Part shown: piece after piece, positions 26,667-29,795 of the stretch | How positions within the stretch are numbered: position 1 is the stretch's first letter | Layout: each line of letters begins with the position of its first letter | Sequence record: OP045498.1 | DNA: 64,000 nucleotides | Origin: Klebsiella phage 150049 | Reading direction: 5' to 3' (one strand) | Position numbers and translations under genes: made by a program | Notes under the pieces: model-generated | Told to the model about the DNA's origin: nothing | Database searches by the model: none | The model's input: the letters and a program-made list of their open reading frames with translations, nothing else

Positions 26667-27083
26667 ATGAGTAAATATGGTTTTGTGAACAACGGATTTA
26701 ATCAACCAATGGGCTCTCAGCAGCCCATTCCGGGTCTGGATAACCCTTACCTACAACAGTTGCAACAGCGTTTAGCAGAAGCGCAACAGATGCAGCAGCA
26801 ACTCCAGCAAAACCCTGGAAGTGTGAGTCCTATGCAAATGATGCAGCAAATGAGCGGGCAGTCGCAAATGCCTCAACAAATGCAGCAACAGGTGCCTCAG
26901 CAGCAAGTTCAGCAACAAACCCAACAACCGCAGGTTTCTGCGGAAGGACAGGCAGTACTAGCCCTTTTCGAAGACTTCGCAAAGACAGAGGATGGGAAAC
27001 AGCTTGTATCACTTATGGGTAAGTTTAATAGCTTCTGCCAAAGCCAAGTTGCAAAAGCTCAAAATGGCGGTAATAACTCCTAA
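26667..27083 (+). CDS. glutamine-rich (prion-like) protein (138 aa)
   Basis: QQLQQ repeats; RBS GGGGAGGAG. Confidence 0.55.
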   Translation: MSKYGFVNNGFNQPMGSQQPIPGLDNPYLQQLQQRLAEAQQMQQQLQQNPGSVSPMQMMQQMSGQSQMPQQMQQQVPQQQVQQQTQQPQVSAEGQAVLALFEDFAKTEDGKQLVSLMGKFNSFCQSQVAKAQNGGNNS

Positions 27084-27339: not shown

Positions 27340-27380
27340 AAATACAGAAAAGCCCGCGCTCTCGAAGGAAACGCGGGCTT
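27340..27380 (-). terminator. rho-independent terminator for SPFH operon (AGCCCGCG..CGCGGGCT plus T-run on minus strand)
   Basis: hairpin 27351..27379. Confidence 0.65.
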
Positions 27381-27403: not shown

Positions 27404-28348
27404 TTACTTGTTACGCATATCCATGATCATTTGACCATCGTAGCCAGTACCGACAACAGTCTGTGGTACACCACCTTGGTATTTTTCAGCACGAAGCATT
27501 TCAACTTCCAGCTGCTTCCAACGAATCATTTCAGGAGTAATGGTACGTTGCAGAGCGGCGTTAGCTTCAGCTTCTTTCTTAGCTGCGTACAGTTTAGCAT
27601 CTGCGTCACGTTCGTTAGCTACTGCCATGTTTTCACGAGCGGAACGATCTGCCTCAGCTTGCTTAACTTTCTGCTGTGCTTCTTGTTCAACACGAGCCAG
27701 TTCAGCTTTTGCAGCGTTAACTTGTTCTTCACGAACTTTGGTGTTCTGTACCTGTTCCATGATTACCGGTGGCAGAGTAATATCCTGAAGGAATACTTGC
27801 TTAACGGTGTAACCATAAGGACGCGCATACTCTTCTACTTCTTGCTGAATAGCGGTTTGCAGTTGAGCCTGAATCTTAGCGTCGAACAGATCTTGTGCTT
27901 TTGGTACAGACTTACCAAACTCACGAATCGTAGACAGCATCTTCTCTTCAACGTACTTGTTCAGAGCTTGATCCTGAGTACCTGCGTTAACACGGTTCAT
28001 AGGAGCTTTAGCACCATCAAACTGCAACATAACGGTAATGTCAACAGTAGACTTAAACTTATCCTGGCTAGGAACCTGAAGTTTATCCAGTTTCATGGAA
28101 ATATCTTTCGTACTAAAAGTATCAAAAGAAGCAAATGGGTTAACAATATGGAAGCCTGGCAGTACAGGGTTCGGGCTAACTTTACCCAGGAAGGTTTGAG
28201 TCTTAACAGTACCATCCTGAACAACTGTGTAGGAATTGAGAGCCAGAATAAGAGCGCCAAGACCAACTACAGCACCAACACCCCAACGTTTAATAGTACG
28301 AATTACTTTTTGATCGGAAGTCAGTTCTTTAGTGTTTTTAGTAAACAT
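27404..28348 (-). CDS. SPFH/band-7 (stomatin/prohibitin/HflK-like) membrane protein (314 aa)
   Basis: N-terminal TM, SPFH core then long E/A/Q/K-rich coiled coil. Confidence 0.7.
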   Translation of the reverse strand: MFTKNTKELTSDQKVIRTIKRWGVGAVVGLGALILALNSYTVVQDGTVKTQTFLGKVSPNPVLPGFHIVNPFASFDTFSTKDISMKLDKLQVPSQDKFKSTVDITVMLQFDGAKAPMNRVNAGTQDQALNKYVEEKMLSTIREFGKSVPKAQDLFDAKIQAQLQTAIQQEVEEYARPYGYTVKQVFLQDITLPPVIMEQVQNTKVREEQVNAAKAELARVEQEAQQKVKQAEADRSARENMAVANERDADAKLYAAKKEAEANAALQRTITPEMIRWKQLEVEMLRAEKYQGGVPQTVVGTGYDGQMIMDMRNK

Positions 28349-28359
28349 ATATTTCCTTA

Positions 28360-28560
28360 TTATTTAGAAGAGTTAGCTACTACAGTTACTTTAGTTGCAG
28401 AAATAAACAGGCTAGCATCCACAGCAAATTCAGGAGCTTTGATATCTCCGTTATGAAATATGACTATACCGGAGACTACTTCAAATGCTAGCGCTGTAAC
28501 ATCGGTGGTATTTACTTGTGAATGTTCACCTACTACTTTTACTATATATCGTGTTTTCAC
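28360..28560 (-). CDS. NfeD-like short beta-barrel protein (66 aa), partner of SPFH
   Basis: beta-rich YIVKVVGEHSQV..GIVIFHNGDIKAP; positioned immediately upstream of SPFH gene. Confidence 0.4.
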   Translation of the reverse strand: MKTRYIVKVVGEHSQVNTTDVTALAFEVVSGIVIFHNGDIKAPEFAVDASLFISATKVTVVANSSK

Positions 28561-28586: not shown

Positions 28587-28661
28587 TGGCCGAGGTGACA
28601 GGATTCGAACCTGCATAAAGGAATTTAGAAGACTCCTGCCTATCCCTTAGACTACACCCCG
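28587..28661 (-). tRNA. tRNA-Arg (TCT)
   Basis: anticodon arm GGAGT-CTTCTAA-ATTCC, T-arm GCAGG-TTCGAAT-CCTGT, CCA encoded. Confidence 0.65.
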
Positions 28662-29750
28662 TTTAGGTATTTTTAAGAACTCTTATAAAAGCTCTTAAAG
28701 ATACCCGACGGTAGGTAGGGTCAGCCCCCTCAGATTAAGCTCTGCAGCCCTTCCGTCAGACAATATCTTCCAGTTTAAGTCAGGGTGACTTTGTGGTTAT
28801 GTTCTCCGTATGTGAAGAACTCGGTTAGGCTTAGGTCATGACTCCCAGCCTACTGCTGCCGCTCAACAGGAATTATCGCGAATTACCTGTACTATTGGGC
28901 ACCATTAGTGCCATCTCTCATGTCAGCGTTTCCCACTCTCATATTCACGCGGTCTGTTAGAATCGCACCTCCGATTTTCGATGCGAAGCTGGATGCCTAG
29001 TCTCAGGTTAAACGGGGCACACACTAGGCAGTGATCCCGAGTTCCGAGTTTGGTTGAGGCCGTCAGGTTTCCTCGTGGTTTAGCTGTTTCGATTCTAACC
29101 TAATACTGATCAGGTGGCGTACCTCCTGAACCGTCATAGTATGTACTCCAGCAGCGAATGCTTATCCGGTATAAGCCCGAGTTATCCGATTCTTTCCAGA
29201 AGGAGCAGTAAAGCTCAATGTCAGCCTGTGAGCATCTGGCAGTGTTATCACATAAGTCAGTTCGACACCCCACATTTTAGTGCCTGGTAGATCCCGAATG
29301 AAGCCCTCAGTCGTTAGACCTCCATCATTCATCAAAGATTTACGCTACCCACTATTCGATGGACAATCGCCGCATTGTGGTATACATACGTTTTCACTTG
29401 CATCCTAGACGGGTCAGCGTTGAAAGTTATATGGGTTTCTCAAGCCCAACCTTCAGTCTTCTACCCCTGGGACACGCACCGTATTTCACACTGTGCCTAG
29501 CTCCTGTTGAGACCCATCGTTTTGTATAAATTAGAGAAGAGTTTAGAGGAGAGGTTTCAGACGCCTCATTTTACAAGAAGTCTCGAACCTATATTCGTTA
29601 CTCTAGTCACTTGGCCGGATATACCGGACTGGACTCGGAACTCTAACAGGTGATCATTCTTAACCCACCGACTCTATTCAGTGTCAGAAGCTATCACTAG
29701 GTGAATCGCTAAAGCTCACTCAGCGTAATCGGCTCGCTGTTCTCTAATTT
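28662..29750 (-). ncRNA. candidate large (~1.1 kb) structured non-coding RNA
   Basis: ORF track shows no ORF of 60 aa or more on any of six frames between 28566 and 29795; GC-enriched; transcribed from promoter 29752..29787 into tRNA-Arg and SPFH operon. Confidence 0.4.
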
Positions 29751-29751
29751 A

Positions 29752-29787
29752 TGAATCTATTATACAGAATTTTGGAACGTTTAGCAA
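29752..29787 (-). promoter_or_regulatory. T5-type early promoter driving the large non-coding segment
   Basis: -10 29759..29764, -35 TTGCTA 29782..29787. Confidence 0.6.
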
Positions 29788-29795
29788 ATCAATTT

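What the first reader, a model, noticed from the sequence alone, without database searches (positions are those of the whole stretch)
27404..28560. Phage-encoded SPFH (stomatin/prohibitin/HflK-like) protein paired with a short NfeD-like beta-barrel protein
SPFH proteins paired with NfeD partners form membrane microdomain and protease-modulating complexes in bacteria (HflK/C with FtsH, QmcA with YbbJ, YqiK with YqiJ). Here a 314-aa SPFH protein with N-terminal TM and long coiled-coil tail is immediately preceded by a 66-aa beta-rich ORF consistent with the NfeD C-terminal OB-fold. Both are co-transcribed with tRNA-Arg and the large non-coding segment. A phage copy could remodel host membrane domains or modulate FtsH, which controls lambda CII and host stress responses, or it could act in superinfection exclusion. 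SPFH/NfeD is also found in some anti-phage loci.
Basis: partly seen in the sequence, partly recalled or inferred. Interest (0 to 1): 0.6.

Follow-up and report, generated by a model that had tools for sequence, protein, structure and literature searches.

The report
Phage SPFH gene, no NfeD partner
The 314-aa gene is a real but already annotated, dispensable membrane-scaffold (SPFH/Band 7) protein of T5-like phages, and the 66-aa ORF in front of it is a real, lineage-restricted small gene that shows none of the testable hallmarks of an NfeD partner.

Summary
The window is an EPS7-like (Epseptimavirus, T5-like) phage. Both ORFs exist exactly as described.

**SPFH gene (27404-28348, minus strand).**
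- It is a firm SPFH protein: Pfam Band_7 scores 70 bits, and a full-length AF2 model matches erlin, prohibitin, HflK/C and QmcA.
- It is the ortholog of T5.080 and is already annotated as SPFH/Band 7/PHB in many phage records. The domain was reported in T4-like phages in 2006.
- It is dispensable: "Not Fit" in a T5 CRISPRi screen, deleted in phage NG_S8 and absent from BF23.

**ORF66 (28360-28560, minus strand).**
- It looks like a real gene: it has an RBS, dN/dS is 0.13-0.5, and a 49%-identical ortholog sits in the same slot.
- The NfeD reading is not supported. It hits neither Pfam NfeD nor YqiJ_OB, although both detect the control proteins. It has no membrane segment and is under half NfeD length. 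An exhaustive HMMER scan found no NfeD relative.
- Its fold could not be tested (AF2 pLDDT 41.6).
- It is present in 194 of the 723 SPFH-bearing phage records. It is missing from phages whose SPFH is 99% identical, and a recombination junction separates it from SPFH.

**Verdict.** This is an ordinary accessory operon of unknown function.

The parts
29759..29787 (-). Sigma-70-like promoter candidate (TTGCTA-17-TATAAT, 10 of 12) at the head of the transcription unit
   Evidence: It is the only promoter-like site on the minus strand between the YqeY-like gene and the SPFH terminator. This is a consensus match only. The region holds 3 such sites, against 4.6 expected by chance.
28662..29758 (-). 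Long non-coding leader. Its 3' ~276 nt (28662-28937) are homologous to the 'RNAX' stable RNA annotated in phage DT57C.
   Evidence: There are no long ORFs here and no Rfam family match. blastn gives 78% identity to DT57C RNAX positions 351-636.
28587..28661 (-). tRNA-Arg (anticodon UCU)
   Evidence: ARAGORN and Rfam tRNA at 49.3 bits. It is conserved immediately upstream of the SPFH gene in all T5-like loci examined.
28360..28560 (-). ORF66: a small soluble protein restricted to part of the T5-like phages (phrog_11609, unknown function). It is not demonstrably NfeD.
   Evidence: - Gene signals: GTG start (ATG in TrudiGerster) and an AGGA ribosome-binding site.
- Selection: dN/dS 0.13-0.5.
- Homologs: only P0001 and P0002 in 5.8 billion clusters, plus the 49%-identical P0124 in the same slot.
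- Family searches: no Pfam NfeD or YqiJ_OB hit.
- Membrane anchor: no TM segment.
- Fold: AF2 pLDDT 41.6.
27404..28348 (-). SPFH/Band 7 protein, 314 aa, ortholog of T5.080
   Evidence: - Pfam Band_7 at 70.2 bits and phrog_200 at E = 4e-85.
- PDB sequence hits to QmcA and prohibitins.
- Foldseek: erlin1/2 2.9e-14, PHB, HflK/C, stomatin, QmcA.
- The DT57C annotation names T5.080.
28229..28285 (-). Single N-terminal transmembrane helix of the SPFH protein (residues 22-40)
   Evidence: The maximum Kyte-Doolittle 19-residue mean is 1.81, at residues 24-42. The N-terminal tail has 6 K/R against 2 D/E, which predicts N-in. AF2 places a helix at residues 11-38.
27776..28231 (-). Alpha/beta SPFH domain (residues 40-191)
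   Evidence: AF2 secondary structure with pLDDT about 80-90. The Pfam Band_7 match covers residues 50-224.
27416..27769 (-). C-terminal cage-forming elements: CC1 helix (residues 194-269), CC2 helix (272-289) and a C-terminal beta-hairpin (297-311)
   Evidence: AF2 model. Full-length Foldseek alignments of about 270-310 columns to cage-forming SPFH proteins.
27350..27380 (-). Intrinsic terminator closing the unit (12-bp stem, 7 G-C pairs, T-run)
   Evidence: The homologous position is annotated as a terminator in phage Sepoy.

Best explanation
This is an accessory early-region transcription unit of a T5-like (Epseptimavirus) phage. Its order is promoter, RNAX-like non-coding RNA, tRNA-Arg(UCU), ORF66, SPFH gene, terminator.

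**SPFH gene.**
- It is the T5.080 ortholog: a single-pass inner-membrane protein with the full anatomy of cage-forming SPFH scaffolds. That anatomy is a TM anchor, an alpha/beta SPFH domain, a long CC1 helix, a CC2 helix and a C-terminal beta-hairpin.
- Inference: it inserts N-in, so its bulk faces the periplasm as in HflK/C, prohibitin and erlin. It would then assemble into a homo-oligomeric dome that fences off a patch of inner membrane. This could modulate host or phage membrane proteins, for example FtsH-type quality control or envelope integrity and lysis timing.
- Inference: it works without an NfeD partner, as the prohibitin-like and HflK/C families do.
- It is conditionally useful, not essential.

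**ORF66.**
- It is a genuine but fast-evolving small soluble protein.
- It was gained or lost as a module with the tRNA-Arg gene in part of the T5-like phages.
- It is not a recognisable NfeD, and no independent evidence couples it functionally to SPFH.
For: **SPFH identity and anatomy.**
- Identity is shown.
- Architecture is shown.
- Foldseek ranks SPFH proteins whose bulk faces away from the cytoplasm (erlin, PHB, HflK/C) at or near the top. The positive-inside rule gives N-in.

**The gene is accessory and mobile.**
- It occurs in 723 phage records across Demerecviridae, Straboviridae, Grimontviridae and Vibrio phages, in unrelated neighbourhoods.

**The gene is dispensable.**
- T5.080 is 'Not Fit' in CRISPRi-ART (PMC11879866, supplementary file 16).
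- NG_S8 carries an in-frame deletion of residues 18-276.
- BF23 lacks the gene (PMC12752171).

**ORF66 is a gene.**
- It has a ribosome-binding site, and its start codon varies between GTG and ATG.
- One variant carries an in-frame 3-codon duplication.
- dN/dS is 0.13-0.5.
- A 49%-identical ortholog keeps the frame and the position.

**ORF66 is not NfeD and is not coupled to SPFH.**
- It has no NfeD or YqiJ_OB hit, while the controls score 3.5e-12 and 1.7e-14.
- It has no TM segment.
- No NfeD turns up among the hits of a scan of 1.84 billion representatives.
- It is present in 194 records, against 723 with SPFH.
- It is absent from T5, DT57C, L013 and L014.
- Between the window and L029, the tRNA-ORF66 block is 98-100% identical while SPFH has dS 0.91 against 0.04 for ORF66.
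- No upstream or downstream neighbour in other lineages is NfeD.
Against: - ORF66's fold could not be determined (pLDDT 41.6), so a cryptic OB fold is not excluded.
- The hhalign test against a YbbJ-family profile had no power, because the YqiJ_OB positive control also failed.
- ORF66 is always immediately upstream of the SPFH gene or its remnant wherever it occurs, with 8-11 nt spacing. That spacing is compatible with translational coupling.
- Topology, oligomerisation and any client protein of the SPFH cage are inferences only. There are no expression or protein data.
Confidence: 0.75

Rival explanations
1. One reading: ORF66 is a minimal, TM-less NfeD C-terminal OB-fold protein. It binds the phage SPFH protein and together they form an SPFH/NfeD complex like QmcA-YbbJ or YqiK-YqiJ.
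For: - ORF66 lies directly upstream of SPFH with 11 nt spacing, and its 49%-identical ortholog lies 8 nt upstream.
- Its 66 aa are close to the 57-64 positions of the NfeD and YqiJ_OB domain models.
- The low-confidence model is all-beta.
- hhalign places residues 28-62 on YbbJ C-terminal positions 20-52 at 30% identity, but with P = 0.24.
Against: - It has no PF01957 or PF07290 hit at E <= 1, and both models detect the controls.
- It lacks the TM helices that anchor every described short NfeD, and it has no ClpP domain (PMC2636767).
- If the SPFH domain is periplasmic, a cytoplasmic ORF66 sits on the wrong side of the membrane (inference).
- NfeD partners are described only for the SPFH1, SPFH2 and SPFH5 families, not for prohibitin-like or HflK/C-like ones (PMC2636767).
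- Most phages with this SPFH lack ORF66.
- A recombination junction lies between the two genes.
- ORF66 evolves about 5 times faster in dN than SPFH.
Confidence: 0.07
2. ORF66 is not NfeD but is a lineage-specific accessory subunit or regulator of the phage SPFH protein. It might bind the 21-residue cytoplasmic tail, or act through translational coupling to set SPFH expression.
For: - It is invariably adjacent to and co-oriented with the SPFH gene, with 8-11 nt spacing, in both divergent ORF66 lineages.
- No promoter or terminator lies between the two genes.
Against: - All occurrences lie in one syntenic phage lineage, so adjacency is inherited and is not independent evidence.
- SPFH proteins that are 99% identical exist without ORF66.
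- ORF66 stays intact in NG_S8, where the SPFH gene is reduced to 55 codons.
- ORF66 is exchanged together with the tRNA gene, not with SPFH.
Confidence: 0.13
3. ORF66 is not a gene. It is a chance open frame in an intergenic insertion between tRNA-Arg and the SPFH gene.
For: - It is short, has a GTG start in most copies and has no family or structural match.
- It is absent from many close relatives.
- There are no expression data.
Against: - Synonymous changes outnumber non-synonymous ones, 9 to 4 against TrudiGerster, giving omega 0.13.
- The frame, length and start are kept in an ortholog only 49% identical in protein.
- One variant carries an in-frame indel.
- A ribosome-binding site sits at proper spacing.
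Confidence: 0.05

Closest known systems
T5.080 of bacteriophage T5 and its orthologs (phrog_200; annotated 'putative membrane protease', 'lipoprotein', 'PHB/Band 7/SPFH domain-containing protein')
   Same: - The protein is 91-92% identical to the orthologs in DT57C and other Tequintavirus phages, and other Epseptimavirus records hold 100%-identical copies.
- It occupies the same genomic slot downstream of tRNA-Arg(UCU) and RNAX.
   Different: - This phage carries the extra ORF66 between the tRNA and the SPFH gene.
- The 'lipoprotein' name is wrong, because the protein has no cysteine.
Prohibitin, erlin and HflK/C-type SPFH scaffolds (SPFH3/SPFH4 of Hinderhofer et al. 2009)
   Same: - It has an N-terminal TM anchor and is predicted to face away from the cytoplasm.
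- It has the SPFH domain, CC1, CC2 and a C-terminal beta element.
- These families give the best Foldseek matches.
- These families have no NfeD partner (PMC2636767).
   Different: - Sequence identity is only 15-20%.
- There is a single gene, so it would form a homo-oligomer rather than a two-paralog hetero-oligomer.
- No FtsH link has been shown.
QmcA-YbbJ and YqiK-YqiJ SPFH/NfeD operons of E. coli
   Same: - A small ORF is adjacent to an SPFH gene in one operon.
- QmcA is the best PDB sequence hit for the SPFH protein: 4e-5 with the single sequence and 9.8e-8 with the profile.
   Different: - YbbJ (152 aa) and YqiJ (209 aa) have strong hydrophobic segments, and their NfeD or YqiJ_OB domains are detected at 3.5e-12 and 1.7e-14. 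ORF66 has neither feature.
- The QmcA cage faces the cytoplasm (PMC13086221, citing Tan et al. 2024), whereas the phage protein is predicted to face the periplasm.
SPFH genes of T4-like phages (RB43 ORF139c, 44RR ORF098c, Aeh1 ORF064c; Nolan et al. 2006)
   Same: They belong to the same protein family: 60-82% identity over residues 38-312. The SPFH domain was already noted in 2006 (PMC1524935).
   Different: The neighbourhood is different: the tk/rI region, with DUF5856 upstream or a pilin-like N_methyl ORF downstream. They have no tRNA and no ORF66.

Membership tests
SPFH / Band 7 superfamily (314-aa ORF) | Match to the Band_7 (PF01145) profile above the gathering score | tested here: met
   70.2 bits against a cutoff of 23.6, E = 2.9e-19, residues 50-224.
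SPFH / Band 7 superfamily (314-aa ORF) | Membrane anchor at the N terminus | tested here: met
   A hydrophobic helix at residues 22-40, with a Kyte-Doolittle 19-residue mean of 1.81. AF2 places a helix at residues 11-38.
SPFH / Band 7 superfamily (314-aa ORF) | Alpha/beta SPFH domain followed by long CC1 and CC2 helices and a C-terminal beta element, superposable on solved cage-forming SPFH proteins | tested here: met
   AF2 mean pLDDT 77.6. Foldseek probability 1.00 to erlin1/2, PHB1/2, HflK/C, stomatin and QmcA over 270-312 alignment columns.
SPFH / Band 7 superfamily (314-aa ORF) | Assembly into a large ring or dome oligomer on a membrane | not testable with these tools
   This needs native PAGE, cryo-EM or multimer modelling.
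NfeD family (66-aa ORF) | C-terminal partner-binding domain matching PF01957 (NfeD) or PF07290 (YqiJ_OB) | tested here: not met
   No hit at E <= 1. Positive controls: YbbJ 3.5e-12 and YqiJ 1.7e-14. No NfeD appears among the hits of an exhaustive phmmer scan of 1.84 billion representatives.
NfeD family (66-aa ORF) | Five-stranded OB-fold beta-barrel | tested here: inconclusive
   - AF2 mean pLDDT is 41.6.
- Foldseek's best hit has E = 3.1 and no hit is NfeD, but the model is too poor for this to mean anything.
- hhalign gives probability 0.25%, but its positive control also failed.
NfeD family (66-aa ORF) | N-terminal hydrophobic membrane segments (short form, about 140-150 aa) or a ClpP-type protease domain (long form) (PMC2636767) | tested here: not met
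   ORF66 is 66 aa in total. Its maximum Kyte-Doolittle 19-residue mean is 1.39, in a segment containing D and E. YbbJ scores 2.05 and YqiJ 2.87.
NfeD family (66-aa ORF) | Same operon as an SPFH gene and co-inherited or co-evolving with it | tested here: not met
   Adjacency is met. Co-inheritance is not:
- ORF66 is in 194 records against 723 with SPFH.
- It is absent next to 99%-identical SPFH genes.
- dS is 0.04 for ORF66 against 0.91 for SPFH between the window and L029.
- ORF66 is intact beside a deleted SPFH gene in NG_S8.
NfeD family (66-aa ORF) | Physical binding to the SPFH partner | not testable with these tools
   No complex prediction or experiment is available here.
HflK/C-type FtsH modulator | Two paralogous SPFH subunits forming a hetero-oligomer | tested here: not met
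   There is one SPFH gene per genome: 724 places in 723 records. There is no second Band_7 ORF beside it.
HflK/C-type FtsH modulator | Periplasm-facing SPFH domain and binding of FtsH | not testable with these tools
   Orientation is only inferred from the positive-inside rule: 6 K/R against 2 D/E before the TM helix. FtsH binding needs an experiment.
Bacterial lipoprotein (the name given by PHROGs and RefSeq) | Lipobox with an invariant cysteine after the signal peptide | tested here: not met
   There is no cysteine anywhere in the 314 residues.
Known anti-phage defence systems (PADLOC) | Match to a defence-system protein model | tested here: not met
   There is no significant hit for either protein. 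The best is DpdA at E = 0.18.

The most novel reading that the evidence does not exclude
The phage SPFH protein builds a periplasm-facing cage in the host inner membrane. The cage captures a specific client, such as host FtsH or a phage holin/antiholin-type protein, to tune proteolysis or lysis timing. In Epseptimaviruses, ORF66 is a new, non-NfeD or cryptically NfeD-like adaptor for this cage.
Probability: 0.1. Interest if true: 0.6.

Novelty: already known. Interest (0 to 1): 0.2.

Why it matters
If the SPFH/NfeD pairing had held, it would have been a compact viral version of a widespread but poorly understood bacterial membrane module. It does not hold.

What remains is a widely distributed phage gene that is already annotated, has never been characterised and is dispensable in the laboratory. 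It probably forms a membrane cage.

Three points have practical value:
- The 'lipoprotein' and 'membrane protease' labels propagated for phrog_200 are unfounded.
- ORF66 should not be annotated as NfeD.
- The natural presence/absence variants (NG_S8, L013/L014, BF23) are ready-made material for anyone who wants to test what a phage SPFH cage does.

Tried and rejected
1. **AF2 on ORF66** with the 3 available sequences gave pLDDT 41.6, which is unusable. Foldseek on that model returned nothing meaningful.
2. **hhalign** of the ORF66 alignment against an 83-row YbbJ-family NfeD C-terminal alignment gave probability 0.25%. The YqiJ_OB positive control also failed, so the test has no power and is not counted as evidence. 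The homolog search with YbbJ returned only relatives at 73% identity or more in its listed rows.
3. **Remote phmmer hits** of ORF66 to giant proteins P0123 and P0125 are repeat-summed artefacts. P0123, for example, has 13 stretches of 6-9 bits each against AHNAK-like repeats. The resemblance to 'DATATAADIVSGKTAYVNG' repeats in P0126 and P0127 reaches only 17 bits in the best stretch. Both were rejected as evidence of homology.
4. **The conserved 170-aa ORF** upstream of distant phage SPFH genes (L062-L083) looked like a candidate short NfeD by size. It carries a P-loop (GPASSGKS) and is not NfeD.
5. **Upstream genes in T4-like and Grimontviridae phages** are DUF5856, an unknown 87-aa protein and an AAA ATPase. 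None is NfeD.
6. **tblastn of YbbJ against all phage records** found only a 1.7-kb fragment that is probably host DNA.
7. **Paralog search:** no ORF66 paralog and no NfeD-like ORF lies elsewhere in the window.
8. **Literature searches** found no functional study of any phage SPFH protein.

Full report
**What the window is.**
- A 3-kb stretch around the finding matches 504 phage records. The best are Escherichia phage EPS7 and Salmonella phages of the genus Epseptimavirus (Demerecviridae, T5-like) at 98-99% identity.
- The window carries 29 tRNA genes, typical of the T5 tRNA region.

**The observation.**
- Both ORFs exist as described. The SPFH ORF is 27404-28348 on the minus strand: 314 aa with an ATG start preceded by AAGGAAAT. 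ORF66 is 28360-28560 on the minus strand: 66 aa with a GTG start preceded by AGGAAA.
- ORF66 begins 26 nt after the 3' end of tRNA-Arg(UCU) (28587-28661) and ends 11 nt before the SPFH start.
- On this strand the only sigma-70-like site lies at 29787-29759, at the head of a 1.1-kb stretch without ORFs. The only terminator-like hairpin lies at 27380-27350, just after the SPFH stop. Phage Sepoy has an annotated terminator at the same place.
- Co-transcription of the non-coding RNA, the tRNA, ORF66 and SPFH is therefore plausible, though it is inferred from consensus matches only.

**The 314-aa protein is SPFH.**
- Pfam Band_7 scores 70.2 bits against a cutoff of 23.6. phrog_200 matches at E = 4e-85.
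- The nearest solved sequences are QmcA and prohibitin 1/2.
- An AF2 model built from 21 homologs has mean pLDDT 77.6. It shows a TM helix (residues 11-38), an alpha/beta domain (40-191), a 76-residue helix (194-269), a second helix (272-289) and a C-terminal beta-hairpin.
- Foldseek aligns the model full-length to the cage-forming SPFH proteins: erlin1/2 (2.9e-14), PHB1/2, HflK/C, stomatin, QmcA, flotillin and the vault protein.
- The N-terminal tail carries 6 K/R against 2 D/E, while the 20 residues after the helix carry 2 against 1. By the positive-inside rule the bulk should face the periplasm, the orientation of HflK/C. This is an inference.
- The protein has no cysteine, so the 'lipoprotein' name propagated by PHROGs and RefSeq cannot be right.

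**This gene is known, mobile and dispensable.**
- It is the ortholog of T5.080, which the DT57C record describes as 'putative membrane protease'. Many phage records already annotate it as PHB, Band 7 or SPFH domain protein.
- The SPFH domain was listed for T4-like phages RB43, 44RR and Aeh1 in 2006 (PMC1524935).
- tblastn finds the gene in 723 phage records from T5-like, T4-like (Straboviridae), Grimontviridae, Vibrio and Aeromonas phages, in unrelated neighbourhoods.
- T5.080 is 'Not Fit' in the genome-wide CRISPRi-ART screen of T5 (PMC11879866, supplementary file 16).
- The isolated phage NG_S8 carries an in-frame deletion of residues 18-276 at an ATTCGT microhomology.
- BF23 lacks the gene (PMC12752171).
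- I found no functional study of any phage SPFH protein.

**ORF66 is probably a real gene.**
- Against TrudiGerster it shows 9 synonymous and 4 non-synonymous differences, giving omega 0.13. Its start codon there is ATG rather than GTG.
- One variant has an in-frame EFA duplication.
- An exhaustive phmmer scan of 1.84 billion representatives found one divergent ortholog, P0124 (63 aa, 49% identical).
- P0124 lies in uncultured T5-like contigs in exactly the same slot. It sits between tRNA-Arg and an SPFH gene that is about 86% identical to the window's, 8 nt upstream of that gene.
- ORF66 evolves much faster than its neighbour: dN 0.41 against 0.09 over the same comparison.

**ORF66 is not demonstrably NfeD.**
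- Pfam gives no NfeD (PF01957) or YqiJ_OB (PF07290) hit at E <= 1. The same models detect E. coli YbbJ at 3.5e-12 and YqiJ at 1.7e-14.
- NCBIfam, PADLOC and PDB sequence searches are empty.
- The other hits of the exhaustive scan are repeat-summed artefacts, not NfeD proteins.
- Hinderhofer et al. describe NfeD homologs as about 140-150 aa, with three N-terminal hydrophobic stretches and a C-terminal all-beta domain (PMC2636767).
- ORF66 is 66 aa with no membrane segment. Its maximum hydropathy is 1.39, against 2.05 for YbbJ and 2.87 for YqiJ.
- The same paper found NfeD partners only for SPFH1, SPFH2 and SPFH5, not for the HflK/C-like or prohibitin-like groups. Those two groups are among the phage protein's closest structural matches, behind only erlin.
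- If the SPFH domain is periplasmic, a cytoplasmic ORF66 could reach only the 21-residue tail (inference).
- The fold itself could not be tested. AF2 gave pLDDT 41.6, and Foldseek on that model is meaningless.
- My hhalign test (probability 0.25%) had no power, because its positive control failed. A cryptic OB fold therefore remains possible but unsupported.

**The pair is not co-inherited.**
- ORF66 occurs in 194 phage records, all at 90% identity or more, against 723 records with the SPFH gene.
- In T5 and DT57C the tRNA-Arg abuts the SPFH gene with a 34-nt spacer.
- In L013 and L014 the SPFH protein is 99% identical to the window's, yet ORF66 is absent.
- L029 carries an identical ORF66 protein (dS 0.04) next to an SPFH gene with dS 0.91.
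- Sliding identity shows a 98-100% block covering the tRNA and ORF66 (28669-28370). It is flanked by 70-88% identity on both sides. ORF66 therefore travels with the tRNA module.
- In NG_S8, ORF66 is intact beside the deleted SPFH gene.
- Every occurrence of ORF66 lies in one syntenic lineage, so its adjacency to SPFH is inherited and is not independent evidence of coupling.
- In other phage lineages the genes flanking SPFH are DUF5856, the rI antiholin region, an AAA ATPase, a P-loop protein or a pilin-like ORF. None is NfeD.
- tblastn with YbbJ finds no NfeD in phage genomes apart from a 1.7-kb fragment.

**Conclusion.**
The NfeD pairing, which made the finding interesting, fails every defining feature that could be tested. 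It is left with adjacency alone.
- The most likely picture is a dispensable accessory operon. In it, a T5.080-type SPFH protein forms a homo-oligomeric, periplasm-facing membrane cage without an NfeD partner, and ORF66 is an unrelated or at most loosely associated small accessory protein.
- The cage, its orientation and its clients are inferences.

Noticed in passing
window 28662-29795 (minus strand): A stretch of about 1.1 kb without ORFs lies between the YqeY-like gene and tRNA-Arg. Only its 3' ~276 nt match the 636-nt 'RNAX stable RNA of unknown function' annotated in DT57C (78% identity), and the 5' part is unrelated. It matches no Rfam family. A promoter-like site sits at its head.
   Followed up: partly
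window 27404-28348; phrog_200 and RefSeq records: The widely propagated product name 'lipoprotein' cannot be right, because the protein has no cysteine and therefore no lipobox. 'Membrane protease' has no support either, because Pfam finds only the Band_7 domain.
   Followed up: yes
L090 (phage NG_S8) 1462-1629: The SPFH gene has a natural in-frame deletion of residues 18-276. The junction falls at an ATTCGT microhomology (VIR|...MIR|) and leaves a 55-codon remnant. ORF66 and tRNA-Arg remain intact.
   Followed up: yes
L003 (phage UPEC03) 1666-3331; L005 (Aeromonas phage L9-6) 2414-3609: In T4-like phages the SPFH gene sits in the tk/rI region. In Pseudotevenvirus it lies two genes downstream of the rI antiholin (PF24205), with a DUF5856 gene in between. 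In Aeromonas phages it is followed by a 72-aa ORF with a type IV pilin N-methylation motif. This hints at an envelope or lysis-timing context.
   Followed up: partly
L013 and L014, 2375-2884: These Epseptimavirus contigs lack ORF66 and carry a 169-aa ORF inserted just upstream of tRNA-Arg, within what is non-coding RNAX-like sequence in the window.
   Followed up: no
window 28444-28512 (ORF66 residues 17-39); P0126, P0127: The ORF66 segment TTDVTALAFEVVSGIVIFHNGD weakly resembles a ~30-residue repeat (…TSDATATAADIVSGKTAYVNG…) in two repeat-containing proteins of unknown function. The best single stretch scores 17 bits, so the whole-protein E-values are inflated by repeat summation.
   Followed up: partly
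L062-L083 (IMG/VR contigs of about 70-150 kb): A distant phage SPFH clade, 24-26% identical to the window's protein, has a conserved 170-aa P-loop (GxxxxGKS) protein about 43 nt upstream and a ~60-aa ORF 86 nt downstream. This conserved three-gene arrangement does not involve NfeD.
   Followed up: partly
window 26667-27083 (plus strand): A glutamine-rich 138-aa ORF converges on the SPFH terminator. Relatives annotate it as 'cAMP-dependent protein kinase catalytic subunit', which looks like a low-complexity mis-annotation.
   Followed up: no
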